A stretch of 64,000 nt of DNA from a virus (lineage: Duplodnaviria > Heunggongvirae > Uroviricota > Caudoviricetes): IMG/VR virus record IMGVR_UViG_2537561979_000003; one strand, written 5' to 3'. This document shows, in pieces, positions 3,033 through 50,493 of this stretch (position 1 is its first letter; every line of letters starts with the position of its first letter). The notes under the pieces are model-generated. The model was not told where the DNA came from and did no database searches. It saw nothing but the letters and a program-made list of their open reading frames with translations. A program made the translations under genes and the position numbers.

Positions 3033-4225
3033 TAATCATCATCCCCGTATAGCTTGCGGGTAACTTCTTCGTCTTCCTCCTCGTCTTCGTCCAGGTCTTG
3101 TTCCAGCCATGGGTCGTTTGATACACCTTCAGTATCAACATCTCCATAACCGCCTGTATCAACGATATCGGCGATTTCTTCCCTACGCTGCTCAATCCAC
3201 AATGCGGCATCGGCGCGGCGGTTGGCGGCCCGTTCTCGCGCAACTTTGTCCAGATCTTCAAGAGAAGGGCCACCGACGGCTGTTTGCCTTTCCTCATCAT
3301 CGGTATTGGTCTTAGGAGCACGCAGATCGGCTTTGATTTGCTCCAGCATCAGGGGCGGAACTTTCCCGCCATGCGCCTCGATGAATTCAGCTGCTTCCAG
3401 CACTGACCAGTTATTTTCACGCTTTCGTTCGTATGCCAGTTTAACAATGCCAGCTTGCCCCATAGACAAAGCGTGCTTTTCCGCCTCCCGGCTTTCTTTT
3501 CGATAGTTATTCCGGATGCTGTAAATGGTGTTGATCAGGCTGCTTATCTGCGCGGAACAGCTGTTTAGCATGCTCGCGATACGGTATTCAGGCGGAGTTC
3601 CTTCATCATCGTCTTTTTGCTGATCGCGCATTTCCTGAACCAAGCGAATACACGTATCCCTGGCGTTCTCCAGCATAAGGAGATGAGAGAGAGACTTTTC
3701 CAGAAGAGTGGTTTCCAGAACATCAGCCCCGGACCGACGCAACATAGCGCGCGCGGCCTTCCGCGCTTCAACGTTATCTATCAGGTAATCGCCAGCTTCG
3801 AATTCAAAGCGTTCACCATCATCATCCAGGGTGTCGCGTTCCAGGCGATCACGTAAGGTCCGGTGGGCGCGGGTGATCACGTCATGATCATCAGAACGAT
3901 CATTTATGCGCTTATTCTGGCGCTTCGCGTTCTCGACTGCGGCACTGACAACAGCATTAACTCTTTGTTTTTCAGCCATTTCAGCCACAACGTGATCACC
4001 TGCACGTTGATCATTAGCGTGATCAATGATCATGCTTTTTAGTGGTTTTCTGACAGGCTTATTTGGCTTACGGCTGTCCGCTGTTCCGGTGTCTTCTTTG
4101 AATGCACGGAGATAACGACGTGCGGTGTTTGGGTTGAGATTAAACTCGGCGGCATATTGTGCGATGGTGTAACCACCATCTCGCGCCAGGCGAGCAAAAT
4201 TCTTCTTGTGATCGTCCCAGGTCAC
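3032..4225 (-). CDS. pacA: Terminase small/pac-recognition subunit (P1 PacA-like, 397 aa)
   Basis: 397-aa ORF, N-terminal HTH-like region, acidic C-terminus, contains the hexamer-repeat pac site, translationally coupled to pacB. Confidence 0.75.
3873..4033. other. pac packaging site: two clusters of TGATCA/G hexamers (3 + 4) containing GATC sites
   Basis: tgatca at 3873, 3884, (c)gatca 3897 and tgatca at 3993, 4009, 4019, 4028, inside the 5' part of pacA. Confidence 0.6.
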
Positions 4226-4311
4226 TTATGCTTCCTTTCGTATAAAACTCTTTTTGACGCGAGGGTAACGAAAGTCACATGTCAAAAGGCCCGGAACGGG
4301 CAAGCAATCAA

Positions 4312-4764
4312 TCAGATACGTGCGGATGTGGCATTACCGTAATGACGGTGCTGACGGGCCACCTTATTGAAAAGTTGACGCGCCATTACCCAAGGCTGGT
4401 GCTCCCGGCGTTCCTTTTCGTCCTGCGTCATATAGAGTTCGTTCTGGAGTTTTTCATCAAACCGGCGCGGAGCGCGACTGCGGCGAAAGAATTCAGGATT
4501 CAGAGAGTGGATCTGAAATCTACGTGGGCGTGTACTGTCATCAATCAAAACAGACGAATACTTAGACACAGCGATAGCCTTTAAGCGCAGATAAACATCG
4601 CGCTTATCGACATCCAGATGCGGGTATTCCTTTTCAAGAATTGCTGCGAGTTCTTTCGCTGATAGAAGAGATTTAGTGCGGATCATGTAATCCGCAATCT
4701 CGTACGATGTTATTCGTGAGTGATTTATTTCCATGAAGTGGCGTCCCTGCCAGTTAAGTAACAT
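4312..4764 (-). CDS. Late-promoter-activator-like protein (Lpa/gp10 position), 150 aa
   Basis: Assigned by position directly upstream of pacA and by an operator-like site upstream; no motif evidence. Confidence 0.35.
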   Translation of the reverse strand: MLLNWQGRHFMEINHSRITSYEIADYMIRTKSLLSAKELAAILEKEYPHLDVDKRDVYLRLKAIAVSKYSSVLIDDSTRPRRFQIHSLNPEFFRRSRAPRRFDEKLQNELYMTQDEKERREHQPWVMARQLFNKVARQHRHYGNATSARI

Positions 4765-4834
4765 CCTGTCACCTACTGATTAGCCCATGTCAACTAATCA
4801 ACGTCGAATATAATACCCTAAATTAAAGAAATAG

Positions 4835-4851
4835 CAATACATTAGAGCAAT
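4835..4851 (-). promoter_or_regulatory. C1-operator-like 17-mer (14/17)
   Basis: ATTGCTCTAATGTATTG on minus strand, between 347-aa gene stop and the Lpa-like gene. Confidence 0.4.
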
Positions 4852-4852
4852 T

Positions 4853-5896
4853 TTATCTAACACTCGACGAATGACTTGTGATAGCGCCGACTCCAAGCGC
4901 GTAATCAAAGAACAATCGTTGATGCATCGCCAGCCTACCGTGCGTCTTCTCCCAATTATCGCGGTCACGCTCAATATCACGCTGGCATGACTGGCACAGA
5001 GGAATAGCATAAATGTCATGCGCGCATAATCGACTATGACGAACGATATAAGGCGTAATGTGAGCGCCAGCTCCCGCAGCTCCACAGCCACAGCATGGAC
5101 GGGAAGCCACAAAGTCCATGTACTCGGGCAATTTTAGCGATTGAAGTTTTGGTATCTTGAAATGCGCCATACCTGGGTCGGAGTCAACATCCACAGGGCA
5201 TACTTTTGCACGCATCGGCGCGGCGCGTTCTTCCATCATCTGAACATATGCTGTAGCGCGATCGTCATACGGGCGAATATCCGCCTCTTTCAGAGGTCCG
5301 CTATCCTGCGGAGTAGCCTTCATCTTATTTATTGATATGCGGCAGACTTCTTCCGGCATCAGGTGCATCATGTTGCGCATGAAAGCCCACCAGCACAGCT
5401 CCTGAATACTTAAATCATGGCTATTTGAAAGGCCCATTTCCTGACGGGCGACATCCAGTATCCAGTTAACGCGATTATTGTGCAGCGTTTCTTTCAGCTC
5501 ATTAAAACCACGCATCCGGTAATGGTTATCGTGATGCCAGCACAACAACACCGCGCTATTGTCTCGTTCAGCGTGGACAATATGGTTGTCACACCAACTA
5601 CGATCTGCGGCCTGGCATTGACCCTCTTTCCTACGCAACCACGCCACCAGCGCGTCAATTCCACCAATACGGCGAAACAGTTCATCGCTGTTAAAAAACG
5701 GCTGCAACGCCTCATTTGTTGCCATGGTTTGCTCGGTAACAACTAGGCCGTCTTCCATGTGCTCGATTAACTCACGCGGCACCGGCTCCATAATAAATTT
5801 ACGGCCAGCCTCCACCAGCTTTCTGACCTCCTGATCCACTTTGAACGTGGCGAGGCCAAGCTCTTTCTGTACAAAGGGAGTAATTACGGCTTTCAC
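4853..5896 (-). CDS. Hypothetical protein, 347 aa, Cys-rich C-terminus (CCGCG..C..C..C)
   Basis: Long ORF, possible Zn-binding cluster near C-terminus. Confidence 0.5.
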
Positions 5897-5923: not shown

Positions 5924-6124
5924 TTATCTGCTGCCCGACATTATCTGTTTAAGCACAACCATTTCCTGACGGCATAACACAGCAATAGCGGTCCTGGCAC
6001 CAATTTGCTTACTAACCAGGTATTGCTTTATCTTGCGGCGACTCACGCCATCAAGAAGCATCTTTAACGCTTCACGGGACAATTTGTTGTATTTGCGTGC
6101 CATTAATCTACTCCGCAGAACCAT
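5924..6124 (-). CDS. Small basic protein (about 57-66 aa)
   Basis: ORF overlapping doc 3' end by 17 nt; weak. Confidence 0.3.
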
Positions 6125-6488
6125 ACAATCTACGTAACGTGGCGGCGACAGAAGATACAGATATCTCGCCAGTCGCAGCGCCTACAGTAAGGTCTGCCAG
6201 TTCAGGTGAATCAAATACCTGCACCCCGTTACGGCGTAGAAATAGCAGCGCACTGTTTAGCGCGGTACGCTTATTGGCATCATTGAATATATGCCCTCTC
6301 GCTGTAGCCACCAGGTAGGTGGCGGAGACTTCGAAAAGGTCGGTGATCTCTTCGTAGGCAACTCTGGCCTGAACTCTCCCGATAATGGCCTCTGCCCTAC
6401 CCGGATCTGACATTCCCGGCAGGCCGCCGTAGCGGTTTATATTCGCATCATGAAGCGCAATAAGTTCTTCCGGTGATATATGCCTCAT
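6108..6488 (-). CDS. doc: Doc toxin (Fic-fold kinase, death-on-curing), 126 aa
   Basis: Fic motif [11 protein letters not shown]; 126 aa; start overlaps phd stop. Confidence 0.9.
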
Positions 6489-6709
6489 TATCGGTTAACC
6501 AGTTCCTTGTTGGTGGAGTCCAGGGTGTCAAACAGGGATGCAAATTCAGCATCCAGCGCCGCTTTTTTGTAGGCTTCGAAAGTAGCCTTGCTGACAATTA
6601 CTGCTGGCTCACGGCCTCTGCGGGTGATTTCAACCTCTTCCCCGGCTTCAACATTGTTGAGCACTTCAGAAAGGTTGCCGCGCGCGGTACGGAAGTTAAT
6701 GGATTGCAT
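6488..6709 (-). CDS. phd: Phd antitoxin, 73 aa (ORF-track start at 6715 is probably 2 codons too long)
   Basis: [49 protein letters not shown].. matches the P1 Phd sequence as I recall it; upstream of doc. Confidence 0.9.
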
Positions 6710-6717
6710 AAACACCT

Positions 6718-6781: not shown

Positions 6782-7171
6782 TTAAATCACCGGACAATCA
6801 TCAAATTCCCCACTTCGGGCATCATTAATGACATGAGTGATCACACCAAACACAGCATTACTCCCCGTGCATCCATCGTCATCCACTGGTAACGCCTCTT
6901 TCTTCCCGGTGCTTAAATCCTCCAGGTGCTGGCGCGGATACTTTCGGTATCTCTTTATGCGATATTCACCCTCCATAGCGCACACAAGCAGCGAACCATC
7001 AACTGGAGTAAGCGAAGAATCAACCACCAGCAAAGCACCCTGCAATATTCCCTCACGGTGATGGCTATCAGCTGCCCGCATGAAGTAGGTTGCTGATGGA
7101 TGTCTAATTATCTGCTGATCAAGAGAAATTCGGCTTTCAACATAATCCGCCGCAGGAGAAGGGAAACCCAT
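6782..7171 (-). CDS. humD: UmuD'-like S24 peptidase-fold protein (P1 HumD-like), 129 aa
   Basis: Starts MGFPSPAADYVE.., i.e. at the residues following the UmuD self-cleavage site; Ser and Lys of the dyad present; no umuC nearby. Confidence 0.8.
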   Translation of the reverse strand: MGFPSPAADYVESRISLDQQIIRHPSATYFMRAADSHHREGILQGALLVVDSSLTPVDGSLLVCAMEGEYRIKRYRKYPRQHLEDLSTGKKEALPVDDDGCTGSNAVFGVITHVINDARSGEFDDCPVI

Positions 7172-7201
7172 AGCGTTTTACCTCAAAAATACTGTTTATC
7201 T

Positions 7202-7217
7202 ATACAGCATACATTAA
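7202..7217. promoter_or_regulatory. LexA (SOS) box CTGTTTATCTATACAG
   Basis: CTG-N10-CAG palindrome 31 bp upstream of the humD start, in a divergent intergenic region. Confidence 0.6.
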
Positions 7218-7522
7218 AGAAGCACCTTTGGTGCAAACGCGTTATGTACATCAACCACCGCTGATGATTTTTGTGCGCTTTGCTACTATTCATCACCGCG
7301 GGGTCAGCGTAACCTCGTTGCCAATCAGTTAATAAGGAATTAGCTATGCCTAATCGCATTCCTCTCGATCCTGTATTGCCCAAAAATTTTGACTGCACTC
7401 CTAACGAGAAACGCTCTAAAGCTCAGCTGGACGCCTAGTGGGACCATCCATATGGGGTTACACAACCTGACGGGAAAATTGTAGTTTATTGTCTGAATGG
7501 TGGGGCGTGGGACCGTCCATCC

Positions 7523-7930
7523 GTGCTTTGTTTGGCAGATAACTATGATGAAGCCTGTGAACTTGCCGAAAGACAGCAGGCAAGCTGGGTAAAAACACGG
7601 TCTGAACCGACATTCATGTTTTCAAAAGAACCGCCATTTATACTGGCGAGGATGCCGCAGCGACCGGATCATCAACAAGAAATTGTTGCTGAATTTTCCT
7701 CAAGGGATGAGATGAATCTCTTCTCATTAAAGCAGGAAGAAAGGGATCGCGTCGAAGTGTCTCCAACTCTCGACCACAACCGGATGAACCTGGCCCAGCT
7801 CGCCTGGTACAGCAAAGAATTAGAGATGTCTATTGCCCGGCTTGAAAACGAAAAAGCCGCTATCCAAGTCCAGCACGAAGTAGTTCTGAACCGGATTAGA
7901 GAAATGCAAAACGATAACAGGGGATTTTGA
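7523..7930 (+). CDS. Hypothetical protein (start uncertain; GTG at 7523 or internal ATG)
   Basis: ORF in AT-rich island divergent from humD; stop abuts start of next gene (TGAATG). Confidence 0.4.
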   Translation: MLCLADNYDEACELAERQQASWVKTRSEPTFMFSKEPPFILARMPQRPDHQQEIVAEFSSRDEMNLFSLKQEERDRVEVSPTLDHNRMNLAQLAWYSKELEMSIARLENEKAAIQVQHEVVLNRIREMQNDNRGF

Positions 7931-8287
7931 ATGGCTAAAATCGAGTACCATCGCGATCGCGGTAATTACCTGGAAATATACGATCATGAATCTCTTAACG
8001 ATATCAACGATGCGTTATATGAATACTGTGAAAAAACGAGCATCACAGATGCACCTGATGCATTTGTCGAGCTGCCGGTATATCTCCGCGACATCTATGC
8101 AATACGAACACCGCCCGTATCGGTGATTCACATTGGCTATGTCCGCCTGTCCATCGAAGAAGATGAAGATCGTTATATCGTGCGCCACTATACATTGGAC
8201 AGAAAAGAACTTCCTAATGAATGGAACATGAGTAATTTCTACAACGGTGAATATGGCTTAAAATCCGCTAATAATTTACGGTCATAA
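7931..8287 (+). CDS. Hypothetical protein, 118 aa
   Basis: Translationally coupled to 7523..7930; AT-rich codon usage. Confidence 0.45.
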   Translation: MAKIEYHRDRGNYLEIYDHESLNDINDALYEYCEKTSITDAPDAFVELPVYLRDIYAIRTPPVSVIHIGYVRLSIEEDEDRYIVRHYTLDRKELPNEWNMSNFYNGEYGLKSANNLRS

Positions 8288-8413
8288 TCTATACAGGCAT
8301 GTATAACAACAACGAGTCTATTAGCTGTCAACAACGTTATTTCCTCAAATAAGAAAAAGCAGAAAACAAATTATTTAAGGTCACAAATTGTGGCCTTGAT
8401 GGAGGAGGGAGGC

Positions 8414-8644
8414 TTATTGGCTATGGCTAAAAATCAAATTAGACACTTCATGTTGCTGTAGCTCATCAAGATCCGAGGCCACAAAACCTTTTCCGAAAAA
8501 CTTCACAAGTAACTCACTAGCCGCATCATTGTCACCTATTACACGAAAGTCATACGGCAACGTCGCAAGTTGACGATGTAATCCTGCTGAGAAAGTCGAA
8601 TCTAACAGCGCCCAGAATTCCCACCGCAGGATAATACTCGCCTC
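8414..8644 (-). pseudogene. Start-less gene relic (76 in-frame codons ending ..FFGKGFVASDLDELQQHEVSNLIFSHSQ*)
   Basis: Protein-like open frame with no ATG/GTG/TTG near its 5' end, bounded upstream by TAA; in AT-rich spacer. Confidence 0.3.
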
Positions 8645-9132
8645 TTAATACTGTATATATGTTGTTACGATATGTTTTTCTGTCTCTAAAAAAAGATGTT
8701 TGAAGGGGATAAAAATATACAATTCCAACAAACGTTATTTTTAACAATTTTTTTCTTTGCGTTGACTTTCCCGGACACCTTGTCTGACCGAAGGTGCGCG
8801 AAAGCCACTTTTTCCTTCCTGAGTTATCCACAAAGTTATGCACTTGCAAGAGGGCCATTTTCTACATATTGTGGTGGCTAACAGATGAAATGAATGTAGA
8901 TTAATTGAAGATAAGGAGAAAATTTGAGATGCAATCATGACGTTAATAGATAGGGTCTGCATTACAGACCCCACCCGCATCAAGGAATTAGCCGTTCCCT
9001 GATGTTTTTCCGAAAACATGTGCCGTAAGCTCACGTTAACGACTTTCATTCACCGAATCCAACTATATAGGGGTTGGGTTTCTACGTCAACGTGAGCAAG
9101 TGCACCTTTACATTTGACAAGGAACCACCTGA

Positions 9133-9270
9133 ATGAACGCTTTTTTTCAGTTCCTGAGTGCATTTTTAGATGCGCCTATTATTAGCCAGATTCTGGCTAT
9201 TATCCTCATCATCGTTTTGATTTTGCTTTTAAGGTCAGTAAAAAATGGAATTATGCACTGGCTTACTTAA
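9133..9270 (+). CDS. 45-aa hydrophobic peptide (single TM helix)
   Basis: AAGGA RBS 8 nt upstream of ATG; MNAFFQFLSAFLDAPIISQILAIILIIVLILLLRSVKNGIMHWLT. Confidence 0.3.
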   Translation: MNAFFQFLSAFLDAPIISQILAIILIIVLILLLRSVKNGIMHWLT

Positions 9271-9345
9271 TGTTTCAGTGAAACATTAAAATCTCCTTGA
9301 TGTGGAAACAATCATTTTCTGTATGTGCTGGTGGGCACCTGTAGT

Positions 9346-9708
9346 TCAGCTTTCGTTGGCATTTAACTTCGTCTTTGCTTTCTCCACCAGCAACTTCCAG
9401 ATGCCTATTTCATTAGCAGCCGCCTTGATGGCGGCATAAAAAGCATCTTGCTGATCGTAACGCTGGATCTGTTTTTTCAGTTTTGCCTCCACCAATTTAA
9501 TTTCATTACGTGCTTTCTGAAGCCGCATCACCGCCCGGTTACGTCTGTTCTTGTATAGCGTGTTAATCTCTGACAATTGCTTTAATTTACCAGCCTGACT
9601 GCGGATTATCGCCTCCCTGGCTTCTGCCGTGCGTCTCATCTGATCTCTTAAGAGTTCACCGTTTTCGATAATTCTTTCAAGGTGTTTGATGTGATCTGCA
9701 ACTCTCAT
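9346..9708 (-). CDS. Hypothetical coiled-coil protein, 120 aa
   Basis: ORF overlaps next gene by 4 nt. Confidence 0.5.
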   Translation of the reverse strand: MRVADHIKHLERIIENGELLRDQMRRTAEAREAIIRSQAGKLKQLSEINTLYKNRRNRAVMRLQKARNEIKLVEAKLKKQIQRYDQQDAFYAAIKAAANEIGIWKLLVEKAKTKLNANES

Positions 9709-10586
9709 ACTTCACCCTCGCTTGTATCACCAGCGTCCACCAACGACAATAAAGCCCTGGCCATCTTATGAACCAACAGTGCATCAATAATGCCAAGCGT
9801 ATGCCCCGGCTTAATGTTTAATGCTGCCTCAAGATGACACCTTTCCAGACCGCTTTTCTCGGCTTGTTTATGATGATATGGCGTAATAACGTCGCCCAAA
9901 ACACGGCTAATTCTTTCTCGTAATTGCTGGGTGCCAGCACACTTGATCGCTGTATCGTGGAGACGGTTAACCAGTTCGCGATAAACATGCGGCTTAATGC
10001 GGATACGTTCACCGGTGACGCCCTTTCCTGGCGTAGGCACCGAACTATCCGGAATATCCGGATAGTTGCCAGCCAGTCTACGCAAAACAGCCTTAATTGC
10101 ATCAATACGGTCATCATCAACTTTTTCTACAATATTGGAATTTAAATACTTCGAAGCCTTGCTATGCCAATCGCTGGTTTTAGGGTCTTGTCCATCCATC
10201 AAACGCCAAGCTTCAGCGATTAACTCATAGCCAGTAACAGTGGCTTCCTGCGCATCACCAATCAGTTGTGTGATCTCTCTTTCAAGCATGCTTAGAGCGT
10301 TAGGCATTGGTTTTTCTTCCGGTACTACTGGAACGGGGGGAGCGGCGTAGACCTCAATAATTCCATTATCAATAGGCCATTCTCCATCCTTGAGGTAGTC
10401 ACTTGTGCCGTCAACTTGCTGTTCTGCAATGTGGAATGCACCTATTGGTTTTGCTTCCAGTGATGCCAGAGCAATTCGTGCCAGTTCTTCCGCTTCTTCT
10501 GCTGGCAGTACAACGTTGCTACCAGGTCCGTATGTTTCGCGCCACTGCTTGATTGTCAGTAGTCGCTCTTTGGTAATAGTGATCAT
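9705..10586 (-). CDS. Hypothetical protein, 293 aa
   Basis: Long ORF in tightly coupled minus-strand operon. Confidence 0.55.
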   Translation of the reverse strand: MITITKERLLTIKQWRETYGPGSNVVLPAEEAEELARIALASLEAKPIGAFHIAEQQVDGTSDYLKDGEWPIDNGIIEVYAAPPVPVVPEEKPMPNALSMLEREITQLIGDAQEATVTGYELIAEAWRLMDGQDPKTSDWHSKASKYLNSNIVEKVDDDRIDAIKAVLRRLAGNYPDIPDSSVPTPGKGVTGERIRIKPHVYRELVNRLHDTAIKCAGTQQLRERISRVLGDVITPYHHKQAEKSGLERCHLEAALNIKPGHTLGIIDALLVHKMARALLSLVDAGDTSEGEV

Positions 10587-50179: not shown

Positions 50180-50490
50180 GTTACGGCCTCACAATCAGGT
50201 TTAACAACCTGCTACCCGCTGCTAAACAGGTGGCAGGACGTGACGGGGTTAGCAGACTGGCGATTGTGAAACCAGCAGGCCGAAGCCTCCCCATCACGCC
50301 CCACCATAATTTGGGCGTAACGCGGTTTTACGGACACAAAAATACCGCAATATCGGATATCTGCGGCTGTCCGCACAATCATTCAGGCTGCTAAACCCGG
50401 TCGCAGAATTTGCTACGACGGCGAAACTATAAGCCTGAACGATTAAAAGGTCAATATGATGCGAAAAGATAGCATTCGCGACTTAAAAAT
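50180..50490 (-). ncRNA. Candidate c4-type antisense-RNA leader of the icd-ant operon
   Basis: 310-nt untranslated leader between operator-like site and icd; assignment by P1 analogy only. Confidence 0.25.
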
Positions 50491-50493
50491 ACA

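What the first reader, a model, noticed from the sequence alone, without database searches (positions are those of the whole stretch)
8290..9340. AT-rich spacer with a start-less gene relic and a 45-aa membrane peptide gene
About 1 kb at ~30% GC with no convincing long ORF. The minus strand carries a protein-like open frame (8414..8644) that lacks any start codon, suggesting a deletion scar. At 9133..9270 a 45-aa strongly hydrophobic peptide has a good RBS. Small hydrophobic peptides in AT-rich phage spacers are often type I toxins or membrane-acting effectors.
Basis: seen in the sequence. Interest (0 to 1): 0.5.

Follow-up and report, generated by a model that had tools for sequence, protein, structure and literature searches.

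The report
Host-promoter-driven small membrane peptide gene
The "spacer" in this P1-like phage-plasmid is a patchwork of a dead primase gene fragment plus a conserved little gene unit: a copy of the host's nrdA (DNA-precursor) promoter, a long folded RNA leader and a 45-residue membrane peptide that may be a gated toxin, though its toxicity has not been tested.

Summary
The window is a P1-like phage-plasmid of the P7/SJ46 type. The finding lies in a known variable region between the lxr-like/upf93.6 genes and pmgV.

- **Observation:** mostly confirmed. GC is 39%, not about 30%.
- **Relic:** 8414-8614(-) is real. It is the last 64 codons of a 174-aa DNA-primase-like (Toprim) gene that is intact in phage PhiR41_1, fused to a second, decayed copy of a humD upstream region.
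- **Promoter:** 8733-8879 copies the E. coli nrdA promoter, with two DnaA boxes. GenBank already notes it for P1.
- **Leader:** the promoter should drive a roughly 250-nt leader. Its 190-nt core is three times better conserved than the ORF. It holds a perfect SD with mini-ORFs, conserved hairpins, a hairpin-U5 attenuator and a near-consensus convergent promoter.
- **Peptide:** the 45-aa ORF is intact in all 61 fetched loci that carry the leader anchor, with 5 protein variants. The two deep alleles share 58% identity, have the same length and give dN/dS 0.41. It occurs only in P1-like plasmids, in 4% of complete E. coli genomes.
- **Family:** none known matches.

A gated, type-I-toxin-like membrane peptide is the best but unproven reading (about 0.35). 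A harmless small membrane protein is nearly as likely.

The parts
8350..8413 (-). 3' flank of the dead primase-like gene, including its hairpin (8377-8397) followed by a U-rich stretch on the minus strand
   Evidence: About 90% identical to the sequence downstream of the PhiR41_1 gene. The hairpin is read directly from the sequence. The fold is not significant.
8414..8614 (-). Relic: the last 64 codons and stop of a 174-aa DNA-primase-like (Toprim, DxD-containing) gene. It has no start codon.
   Evidence: Searches give the alignment to PhiR41_1 XSB42472.1. The intact parent hits PHROG 849 'DNA primase' at E 9.5e-54 and phrog_17952 at 1e-34. IS903 sits inside the relic in P7.
8631..8732 (.). 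Decayed second copy of a humD-upstream segment, with a degenerate LexA box (TACTGTATATATGTTGTTAC, 8649-8668). AT-rich (31.6% GC).
   Evidence: Aligns to the region immediately upstream of humD in D6-like IncFIB phage-plasmids L062 and L063, where the LexA box is perfect. The window's own humD and LexA box lie at 6782-7209.
8733..8879 (+). Copy of the E. coli nrdA promoter. DnaA boxes TTATCCACA at 8824-8832 and TTATGCACT at 8836-8844; -35 TTGCAA at 8844-8849; -10 TATTGT at 8867-8872. Predicted TSS about 8880.
   Evidence: Positions 8791-8862 are 72/72 identical to an E. coli chromosome just upstream of the NrdA ORF. GenBank M95666 annotates an 'nrdA-like promoter' and a dnaA box at the homologous P1 site. 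The P1 RefSeq note records two DnaA boxes there. The segment is conserved in all alleles and in D6-like plasmids.
8880..9132 (+). Predicted structured leader. The conserved core is 8910-9098: SD AAGGAG 8913-8918; mini-ORF1 8929-8940 (MQS*, M* or MHL*); 21-codon uORF2 8937-9002; hairpin 1 at 8953-8971; hairpin 2 at 8977-9005 with U5 at 9005-9009 (attenuator-like); long stem 9029-9041/9085-9097 enclosing hairpin 9055-9064/9072-9081.
   Evidence: The core differs about 8.5% from the diverged allele, against 24% in the ORF, and is flanked by indel-rich stretches. Folds give z -2.8 to -3.6. Core helices are 95-100% paired across alleles, with one compensatory pair and four wobble-compatible changes; covariation is not statistically significant. 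Hairpin 2 has dG -11.5 and -7.2 kcal/mol in the two alleles.
9062..9090 (-). Convergent sigma-70 promoter TTGACG-17-TATAGT (the 'PupfN' of the P1 annotation). Predicted TSS about 9055. Its transcript is antisense to the leader.
   Evidence: It is one of only 6 matches of >=10/12 in 64 kb on both strands, where about 0.02 are expected in this block. Both hexamers are invariant in all alleles. The P1 RefSeq record predicts it independently.
9119..9124 (+). SD of the peptide gene (AAGGAA; GAGGA in the diverged allele)
   Evidence: It is kept although the surrounding 9099-9132 is strongly diverged.
9133..9270 (+). 45-aa hydrophobic single-pass peptide gene (MNAFFQFLSAFLDAPIISQILAIILIIVLILLLRSVKNGIMHWLT). 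Conserved internal hairpin at 9158-9175.
   Evidence: Intact in 61/61 fetched loci that carry the leader anchor, with 5 protein variants. The diverged allele is 58% identical, has the same length and no indels; dN/dS is 0.41. PGAP calls it WP_000123562.1 'hypothetical protein'. Present in 216 of 5426 complete E. coli genomes, with 222 of 223 places on plasmids.
9268..9345 (.). Convergent intergenic stretch before the pmgV stop: AT hairpin 9268-9288 and UCUCCUU at 9292-9298, which is complementary to the 5' SD. No canonical terminator.
   Evidence: The stretch is diverged and indel-rich in the other allele, and the 5'-3' pairing is only partly kept.

Best explanation
The right half of the 'spacer' is a conserved accessory transcription unit of P1-like phage-plasmids.

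Shown by sequence homology: a captured copy of the host nrdA promoter sits at 8733-8879. It keeps both DnaA boxes and the -35 but lacks the downstream NrdR boxes.

Inferred: this promoter starts a + strand RNA near 8880. The RNA carries a roughly 250-nt structured leader and then the 45-aa single-pass membrane peptide gene. Expression is probably gated at two levels.
1. Hairpin 2 plus U5 (8977-9009) ends most transcripts early. A ribosome loaded at the perfect SD would run through the mini-ORFs to the uORF2 stop codon, which lies in the 3' arm of that hairpin. That would melt the hairpin and let RNA polymerase read on.
2. The strong convergent promoter at 9090-9062 produces an RNA fully complementary to the leader, and it also causes promoter collision. 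Together these keep peptide synthesis low.

There is no C1 operator in the region, so the unit should be active in the plasmid-prophage state and should follow host DnaA status. The peptide most likely inserts into the inner membrane and acts like a type I toxin, in addiction or abortive-infection style. Toxicity is the least secure step.

The left half of the finding (8350-8732) is inert debris: a truncated primase-like gene and a decayed humD-upstream copy left by mosaic recombination.
For: - Identity of the element and its context.
- Host nrdA promoter copy: 72/72 identity to the chromosome next to the NrdA ORF, the GenBank 'nrdA-like promoter/dnaA box' annotation for P1, and DnaA control of nrdAB (PMC2500167).
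- NrdR boxes 1+2 lie downstream of the -10 in E. coli (PMC12176259), beyond the point where homology to the phage copy ends.
- The leader is an island of conservation: 8.5% divergence against 24% in the ORF, with indel-rich flanks on both sides.
- Stable folds (z -2.8 to -3.6), with core helices kept by one compensatory and four wobble-compatible changes.
- Hairpin 2 plus U5 is present in both alleles, and the uORF2 frame and stop are kept in 61/61 loci while its amino acids change freely.
- The antisense promoter scores 10/12, is one of 6 such matches in 128 kb of strand, and is invariant across alleles.
- Peptide coding signal: 61/61 intact, dN/dS 0.41, conservative substitutions, additional synonymous changes within the P1 clade, a conserved SD and an exceptional GRAVY.
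- Leader and ORF always occur together: every one of the 218 matching E. coli records covers at least 80% of the query.
- No C1 operator in the region.
- The locus lies in a known accessory, variable hot spot of P1-like plasmids (PMC9603915).
Against: - No transcript data exist: both TSSs, the attenuator and the antisense RNA are predictions.
- Only three shallow allele classes exist, so covariation is not statistically significant. Uneven divergence could partly reflect mosaic recombination rather than selection.
- The antisense transcript has no canonical intrinsic terminator. In P1 and the diverged allele the same promoter points toward hot, so it may simply be a hot promoter.
- SD sequestration of the peptide start, typical of type I toxin mRNAs, is weak and not conserved.
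- The peptide matches no toxin family and no other protein among 1.84 billion representatives.
- The +-strand -10 (TATTGT) is a weak match, 8/12 overall, below the scanner's threshold.
- dN/dS 0.41 on 45 codons is only a moderate signal.
- The P1 region was reported as non-essential (PMC10695390). That fits an accessory module but also fits junk.
Confidence: 0.35

Rival explanations
1. The transcription unit is the same, but the peptide is a harmless small inner-membrane protein. It would be an accessory 'moron', for example a modulator of a host membrane protein or an exclusion factor. The leader would be an ordinary regulatory 5' UTR. The minus-strand promoter would exist mainly to express hot, or whatever lies to the left, and would not act as an antitoxin.
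For: - The coding signal and leader conservation are the same as for the best explanation.
- The peptide matches no toxin family.
- The SD is not stably sequestered.
- In P1 and the diverged allele the minus-strand promoter lies upstream of hot.
- IS1 insertion and C-terminal frameshift variants occur but are rare.
- Many enterobacterial small membrane proteins are non-toxic regulators (established knowledge).
Against: - An unusually elaborate and highly conserved leader with a convergent strong promoter is more than a simple moron usually has.
- In the window-type allele hot is gone, yet the minus-strand promoter is unchanged.
Confidence: 0.3
2. The functional product is non-coding. Either a roughly 125-130-nt sRNA runs from the nrdA-like promoter and ends at hairpin 2 plus U5 (about 8880-9009), or the antisense RNA is the product, or both. 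The 45-aa ORF would be a by-product of read-through.
For: - The leader core is far better conserved than the ORF.
- Hairpin 2 plus U5 looks like an sRNA 3' end.
- In D6-like plasmids the same promoter is followed, after about 90 nt, by a very strong terminator (dG -20.6). Promoter-to-short-RNA is therefore a recurring layout.
- uORF2 amino acids are not conserved.
Against: - The ORF keeps its frame, length, SD and hydrophobic character across 24% nucleotide divergence, while its flanks accumulate indels.
- Leader and ORF are never found apart.
- No Rfam family matches.
Confidence: 0.15
3. Nothing here is functional. The whole interval would be recombination debris in a variable region: host nrdA promoter DNA picked up by a transducing phage, plus relics. 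The ORF and hairpins would be preserved only because the copies are recent.
For: - The left half is demonstrably debris.
- The region is a hot spot for IS elements and cargo.
- Deletion and CRISPRi surveys call the P1 region non-essential.
- Most copies are at least 95% identical.
- Covariation is not significant.
Against: - The diverged allele shows a patterned divergence (promoter conserved, variable, 190-nt core conserved, variable, ORF open) that neutral decay does not produce.
- dN/dS is below 1 and substitutions are conservative.
- A near-consensus promoter falls in the conserved core by chance only about 2% of the time.
- The nrdA-like promoter is retained next to humD in a different plasmid lineage.
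Confidence: 0.12
4. The conserved block acts at the DNA level. It could be a DnaA-dependent single-strand initiation or primosome-loading site, or another replication or titration element, built from DnaA boxes plus hairpins.
For: - Two DnaA boxes lie next to stable inverted repeats.
- Replication genes are neighbours: hot in P1 and a primase relic here.
- Palindrome-preserving changes fit DNA hairpins as well as RNA ones.
Against: - The DnaA boxes are simply part of a copied nrdA promoter, about 100 nt away from the hairpins.
- Wobble-type (G-U) changes favour RNA on the + strand.
- The region is dispensable for P1 growth.
Confidence: 0.05

Closest known systems
Type I toxin-antitoxin loci of enterobacterial plasmids and chromosomes (hok/sok, ldr/rdl, tisB/istR-1, zorO/orzO)
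   Same: - A small (<60 aa) single-helix hydrophobic peptide with a basic tail.
- A long, structured 5' leader that is better conserved than the ORF.
- An upstream SD and mini-ORF in the leader, reminiscent of mok.
- A strong oppositely oriented promoter inside the leader, whose RNA would be perfectly complementary to it. In hok/sok the sok promoter also sits in the leader.
- A 5' SD with a complementary 3' UCUCCUU, reminiscent of fold-back inhibition.
- Location on a plasmid prophage, in an accessory hot spot next to phd/doc.
   Different: - No sequence similarity to Hok, Ldr, TisB, Ibs, ShoB, DinQ, Zor or Fst (Pfam, NCBIfam and the exhaustive HMMER search).
- No Rfam hit for Sok-like or other antitoxin RNAs.
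- uORF2 does not overlap the peptide ORF, whereas mok does overlap hok.
- The antisense RNA has no obvious terminator.
- SD sequestration is not conserved.
- Toxicity has not been tested.
E. coli nrdAB promoter (controlled by DnaA, Fis and NrdR)
   Same: About 130 bp are homologous to the chromosomal nrdA upstream region, and 72 bp are identical. This includes both DnaA boxes directly abutting the -35 TTGCAA. GenBank M95666 already calls it an 'nrdA-like promoter' for P1.
   Different: Homology ends at the -10 (TATTGT here, TATCTT in E. coli). The functional NrdR boxes 1+2 and the nrdA 5' UTR are absent, so only the DnaA and upstream part of the regulation can have been inherited. The promoter drives a peptide gene, not ribonucleotide reductase.
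Translation- or antisense-controlled transcription attenuators (pyrBI/pyrE leader type; pT181/pIP501 and pCF10 prgQ/Anti-Q countertranscript type)
   Same: - A leader ORF whose stop lies inside a hairpin plus U-tract upstream of the regulated gene.
- A convergent countertranscript covering that leader.
   Different: - No alternative (antiterminator or preemptor) pairing could be identified.
- The hairpin is weak (-7 to -11.5 kcal/mol).
- Nothing has been tested experimentally.
- The regulated gene is a membrane peptide rather than a biosynthetic or replication gene.
P1 annotation upfM / upfN / upfO and P7 upf91.3-91.7 ('unknown protein function')
   Same: They occupy the same DNA. The predicted promoter PupfN is the antisense promoter described here.
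   Different: Those minus-strand ORFs are not conserved: their frames are broken or their starts lost in other alleles. The conserved ORF is on the opposite strand and is absent from the P1 and P7 reference annotations. It is annotated only as 'hypothetical protein' in SJ46 and by PGAP.

Membership tests
Type I toxin-antitoxin system (generic definition) | A small toxic protein, usually a hydrophobic membrane peptide under 60 aa | tested here: inconclusive
   The size (45 aa), the single TM segment (best 19-residue window KD 3.1) and the basic C-tail are met. Toxicity itself cannot be tested with these tools.
Type I toxin-antitoxin system (generic definition) | An antisense RNA antitoxin that base-pairs with the toxin mRNA | tested here: inconclusive
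   A conserved near-consensus convergent promoter at 9090-9062 would give an RNA complementary to the leader. No terminator was found and there is no expression evidence. The same promoter may serve hot.
Type I toxin-antitoxin system (generic definition) | A toxin mRNA that is translationally inert by structure (SD sequestration or the need for processing) | tested here: not met
   Local folds of the peptide TIR are weak (z -1.5 and -0.2), and the SD pairing is not kept in the diverged allele. A long structured leader does exist.
Hok/Gef, Ldr, TisB, Ibs, ShoB, DinQ, Fst toxin families (Pfam/NCBIfam) | A significant match to the family HMM | tested here: not met
   No hit even at E <= 10, apart from an irrelevant ASFV_J13L match at 0.25. 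NCBIfam gave nothing. phmmer against 1.84 billion representatives found only its own alleles.
Known antitoxin, sRNA or leader RNA families (Rfam 15) | A covariance-model match | tested here: not met
   No match at E <= 1 over 7000-10500 on both strands.
E. coli nrdAB promoter | Two DnaA boxes immediately upstream of the -35, in sequence homologous to the nrdA upstream region | tested here: met
   Boxes at 8824-8832 and 8836-8844. Positions 8791-8862 are identical to the chromosomal sequence upstream of the NrdA ORF.
E. coli nrdAB promoter | The NrdR box pair (boxes 1+2) downstream of the -10 | tested here: not met
   Homology ends at the -10. The box sequences given in PMC12176259 have no counterpart in the phage copy, whose homology to the chromosome ends at the -10.
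E. coli nrdAB promoter | Promoter activity and DnaA-dependent regulation | not testable with these tools
   The -35/-10 match is 8/12 with 17-nt spacing (sequence). No transcript data are available.
Phage DNA primase (Toprim) — the parent of the relic | A match to primase profiles, with the gene intact | tested here: not met
   The parent PhiR41_1 protein hits PHROG 849 at E 9.5e-54. The window keeps only the last 64 codons and has no start, so it is a pseudogene fragment and not a member.
Intrinsic terminator / attenuator | A GC-containing hairpin directly followed by a U-tract | tested here: inconclusive
   Hairpin 8977-9005 (dG -11.5; -7.2 in the other allele) is followed by U5. The simple scanner missed it because of two bulges. 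Termination efficiency is unknown.

The most novel reading that the evidence does not exclude
P1-family phage-plasmids carry a previously unrecognised third addiction or abortive module, besides phd/doc and res/mod. It would be a type-I-like membrane toxin of a new family. Its mRNA would be launched from a hijacked host nrdA/DnaA-box promoter and held in check by a uORF-dependent attenuator and a convergent antisense RNA. Toxin release would then be wired directly to the host's replication-initiation status (DnaA-ATP level).
Probability: 0.2. Interest if true: 0.65.

Novelty: new member of a known kind. Interest (0 to 1): 0.4.

Why it matters
P1 is one of the best-studied phages, and P1-like phage-plasmids are common in clinical E. 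coli and Salmonella: this unit alone is in about 4% of complete E. coli genomes. They also spread resistance genes.

The reference annotations place three non-conserved ORFs on the wrong strand here and miss the conserved unit. If the peptide is a gated toxin or exclusion factor driven by a stolen DnaA-controlled host promoter, it would add a new stability or defence function to these plasmids. It would also be a clear example of a mobile element reading the host's replication state.

If the peptide is only a benign small membrane protein, the result is still a useful correction of the annotation: a primase pseudogene, a host-promoter capture and a real small ORF. Biologically it would be modest.

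Tried and rejected
- **Rfam:** a scan at E <= 1 found nothing.
- **Protein family libraries:** Pfam, NCBIfam and PADLOC on both peptide alleles, uORF2 and the neighbours gave nothing useful. The only peptide hit in PHROGs was phrog_1184 at E 0.058, which is not significant.
- **Wider homologue searches for the peptide:** the word-indexed search of 5.8 billion proteins and the exhaustive HMMER search of 1.84 billion returned only truncated or frameshifted copies of the same alleles.
- **More diverged alleles for covariation:** IMG/VR, metagenomes, GTDB representatives with the peptide and with PmgV, and distant blastn against phages, plasmids and E. coli genomes all gave the same three allele classes.
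- **Covariation test:** it therefore had no power. Shuffles reach the observed values.
- **SD sequestration of the peptide start:** not conserved.
- **An antisense promoter over the ORF itself (P1upfM, P2upfM):** destroyed in the diverged allele.
- **A nearer + strand promoter for the peptide:** none found by eye or by scan.
- **C1 operator in the region:** none.
- **A second NrdR box pair:** none.
- **The minus-strand ORFs upfM, upfN, upfO and upf91.x as real genes:** rejected, because their frames are not kept.
- **uORF2 as a conserved peptide:** rejected, because nearly all its changes are non-synonymous and coincide with RNA stem or loop positions.
- **Literature:** nothing on this ORF, on an 'nrdA-like promoter' or on P1 transcripts here.
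Full report
**What the window is.** The finding lies in a P1-like phage-plasmid. Upstream are Phd/Doc (6108-6715, minus strand) and HumD (6782-7171, minus strand). Megablast of 8200-9400 gives 98% identity to P7, SJ46 and several 'P1' isolates. Only the right half, 8794-9400, matches the P1 reference, at 96%. The annotated records place the interval between upf94.2/upf93.6 (the lxr side) and pmgV. In P1 this stretch holds hot, upfO, upfN and upfM, a late promoter, 'two predicted DnaA boxes' and several predicted sigma-70 promoters. A survey of P1-like plasmids lists it among the eight highly variable, low-GC regions (PMC9603915). Essentiality surveys list upfN and upfO as non-essential by CRISPRi, and upfM, which was not targeted for lack of a PAM site, as non-essential by an earlier deletion survey (PMC10695390).

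**Checking the observation.** GC over 8290-9340 is 39.3%, against 47.9% for the window. The region is AT-richer than its surroundings, but not 30%. There is no long ORF. The minus-strand frame 8414-8644 is open and has no ATG. The 45-aa ORF at 9133-9270 has SD AAGGAA ending 8 nt before its ATG. Its GRAVY is 1.56, a value that only 2 of 343 small ATG-ORFs in the 64 kb reach.

**The relic.** Window 8350-8614 is about 90% identical to the 3' end and downstream hairpin of a 174-aa gene that is intact in phage PhiR41_1. Homology stops abruptly at about 8615. The intact protein hits PHROG 849 'DNA primase' (E 9.5e-54, profile positions 145-334) and phrog_17952 (E 1e-34). Its C-terminus carries the Toprim-type GDNDAAG motif, which the relic keeps. 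The relic is therefore the last 64 codons of a primase-like gene. P7 has IS903 inserted inside it, which fits dead DNA.

Immediately to the right, 8631-8848 aligns to the segment that lies directly upstream of humD in D6-like IncFIB phage-plasmids (L062, L063). Their perfect LexA box TACTGTATATACATACAGTA is degraded here to TACTGTATATATGTTGTTAC (8649-8668). The window's functional humD and LexA box are elsewhere, at 6782-7209. The left half of the finding is therefore a mosaic junction of two relics.

**A copied host promoter.** From about 8733 to 8866 the sequence is homologous to the E. coli chromosome immediately upstream of the NrdA ORF, and 8791-8862 is 72/72 identical. It contains these elements:
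- DnaA boxes TTATCCACA (8824-8832) and TTATGCACT (8836-8844);
- the -35 TTGCAA (8844-8849);
- after 17 nt, TATTGT (8867-8872), where E. coli has TATCTT.

GenBank M95666 already annotates an 'nrdA-like promoter' and a dnaA box at the homologous P1 position. nrdAB is a classical DnaA-regulated operon (PMC2500167). The NrdR operator now considered functional (boxes 1+2) lies downstream of the -10 in E. coli (PMC12176259) and is absent here, because homology ends at the -10. The same promoter segment is retained next to humD in D6-like plasmids. P1's own copy is only 94% identical to E. coli, so the window-type copy looks recently refreshed by the host sequence.

**The leader.** A diverged allele exists in about 30 plasmids (for example CP057418, L006), where the unit abuts a type I R-M system. 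Aligned to it, divergence follows a pattern:
- the promoter is conserved;
- 8873-8909 is variable and carries a 17-nt indel;
- the core 8910-9098 differs at about 16 of 187 positions (8.5%);
- 9099-9132 is variable;
- the ORF differs at 33 of 138 positions (24%), with no indel;
- the downstream stretch is variable, with indels.

The core contains the following features:
- a perfect SD (AAGGAG, 8913-8918);
- a mini-ORF starting at 8929 (MQS*, M* or MHL* in different alleles), whose stop overlaps the ATG at 8937 of a 21-codon uORF2 (8937-9002);
- hairpin 1 at 8953-8971 (-11.8 kcal/mol), with a U-A to C-G compensatory change;
- hairpin 2 at 8977-9005 followed by U5 (-11.5 and -7.2 kcal/mol in the two alleles), with three loop changes;
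- a long stem 9029-9041/9085-9097 enclosing hairpin 9055-9064/9072-9081.

Folding is significantly better than shuffles (z -2.8 to -3.6). Core helices are 95-100% paired across alleles, with one compensatory and four wobble-compatible single changes and no disruption between the two deep alleles within the core helices apart from terminal pairs. With only two deep clades, however, the covariation statistics are not significant. uORF2 stays open in 61/61 loci, yet almost all of its differences are non-synonymous and coincide with stem or loop positions. The RNA or DNA is therefore what is constrained, not the uORF2 peptide. The uORF2 stop codon (9000-9002) sits in the 3' arm of hairpin 2. This geometry would let a translating ribosome suppress termination. 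That step is inference.

**A convergent promoter.** On the minus strand, TTGACG-17-TATAGT (9090 to 9062) scores 10/12. Only six sites of that quality exist on both strands of the 64-kb window, so about 0.02 are expected inside the 190-nt core. Both hexamers are invariant in all alleles. It is the 'PupfN' predicted in the P1 record. Its transcript, starting near 9055, would be fully complementary to the leader. It folds well (z -3.6) but lacks a canonical terminator. In P1 and the diverged allele it points toward hot, about 360 nt away. In the window type hot has been replaced by the primase relic, yet the promoter is unchanged. The promoters annotated over the peptide ORF (P1upfM, P2upfM) are not conserved.

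**The peptide.**
- The ORF is intact in all 61 fetched loci that carry the leader anchor, with five protein variants.
- The 19 metagenome loci belong to the same three allele classes; 17 match over all 45 residues.
- The diverged allele is 58% identical and has the same length and start and stop positions. Its substitutions are mostly conservative (I/V, L/F, R/K), and dN/dS is 0.41.
- Within the P1 clade there are three further synonymous changes against two replaced residues.
- The SD is kept (AAGGAA or GAGGA) although its surroundings diverged.
- PGAP annotates the ORF as hypothetical protein WP_000123562.1, and SJ46 as J46_0085. The P1 and P7 reference records instead annotate minus-strand ORFs, which are broken in other alleles.
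- The unit occurs in 216 of 5426 complete E. coli genomes. Of 223 places, 222 are on plasmids, and leader and ORF always occur together. It is also present in Salmonella and Shigella plasmids.
- Nothing related exists in GTDB representatives or among 1.84 billion protein representatives.
- No family library recognises it.
- There is no C1 operator in the interval, so expression in the prophage state is plausible.

**Interpretation.** The best-supported statement (about 0.7-0.75) is that 8733-9270 is a real, conserved accessory transcription unit encoding a small inner-membrane peptide under elaborate leader control. How it works is inferred. I favour a gated, type-I-toxin-like peptide (overall about 0.35), for three reasons:
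- the combination of a hydrophobic mini-protein, a long conserved leader with an SD and uORF, and a strong convergent promoter inside the leader;
- the plasmid-prophage context;
- the location in an accessory hot spot.

Arguments against are the missing family similarity, the absent antisense terminator, the non-conserved SD sequestration and the lack of any expression or toxicity data. A benign small membrane protein (0.3), an sRNA-centred locus (0.15), pure debris (0.12) and a DNA-level replication element (0.05) remain open. The sRNA reading is supported by the D6-like layout, where the same promoter is followed after about 90 nt by a -20.6 kcal/mol terminator.

**Novelty and score.** The promoter copy and the relic-rich variable region are already documented or ordinary. 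Three things appear to be undescribed in the searched literature: that the conserved gene is on the + strand, that it is coupled to a conserved structured leader and a convergent promoter, and that it is driven by a hijacked nrdA/DnaA-box promoter. At most this is a new member of a known kind, either a small membrane peptide or a type-I-like module. Interest is 0.4.

Noticed in passing
window 7346-7930 (+), position 7437: The lxr-like gene (P7 upf94.2 / SJ46 J46_0083, 194 aa) carries a nonsense change W31 to stop (TGG to TAG) in this window. Otherwise it differs from P7 and SJ46 at only one to two positions each. It is probably a fresh pseudogene or a sequencing error.
   Followed up: partly
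L062 (NZ_CP028433.1) 1990-2170 and 2190-2600; also L063: In D6-like IncFIB phage-plasmids the same nrdA-like DnaA-box promoter sits about 200 bp upstream of humD. About 90 nt later comes a very strong terminator (2141-2168, dG -20.6), which suggests an sRNA gene. Further on there are two direct repeats of TAAGTATCTGGCGACT and a conserved 31-aa hydrophobic ORF (MRPVMVNLLFKIVPPMFAIIKAIIEYVNQRP, 2456-2551) with its own terminator. This may be an analogous small-peptide module. It shares the 10-mer GTGCCGTAAG with the P1 leader.
   Followed up: partly
window 8791-8862 vs L064 (E. coli chromosome, deposited in PLSDB as a 'plasmid'): The window-type nrdA promoter copy is 100% identical to the chromosomal sequence over 72 nt, whereas the P1 reference copy is only 94% identical over 56 nt. 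This suggests recent gene conversion or recombination between phage-plasmid and host chromosome at this short homology.
   Followed up: partly
L006 / L007 (CP057418.1, NZ_CP032074.1) 3177-5135: In the diverged allele class the peptide unit is followed not by pmgV but by a type I restriction-modification system (hsdM, hsdS). This matches the P1 record's notes on similarity to sequences flanking the EcoDXXI hsd locus.
   Followed up: no
P7 L002 2352-3408; NZ_CP139854.1 (H84/H110); P0001-P0004: Insertion sequences hit this interval repeatedly: IS903 inside the primase relic in P7, and IS1 close to the 3' end of the peptide ORF in one E. coli plasmid. A few database proteins are C-terminally frameshifted or IS-fused versions of the peptide.
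   Followed up: partly
window 27610-27685, 29313-29466 (-): Three tRNA genes are present: 'Met' with a CAT anticodon, Thr-TGT and Asn-GTT. They probably correspond to the tRNA genes known from P1. The CAT one may be a tRNA-Ile2; this is from memory and was not tested.
   Followed up: no
window 1528, 4835, 14314, 16406, 16455, 20079, 30123, 30134, 33656, 48822, 50493: Eleven matches (up to 3 mismatches) to the P1 C1 operator consensus ATTGCTCTAATAAATTT, against 0.36 expected. None lies in the finding. The strong minus-strand promoter match at 50454 sits next to the operator at 50493.
   Followed up: no
window 9705-10586 (-): The PmgT-like protein gives a weak PADLOC hit to PglZ (E 0.001, 15.5 bits). 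It is probably noise.
   Followed up: no
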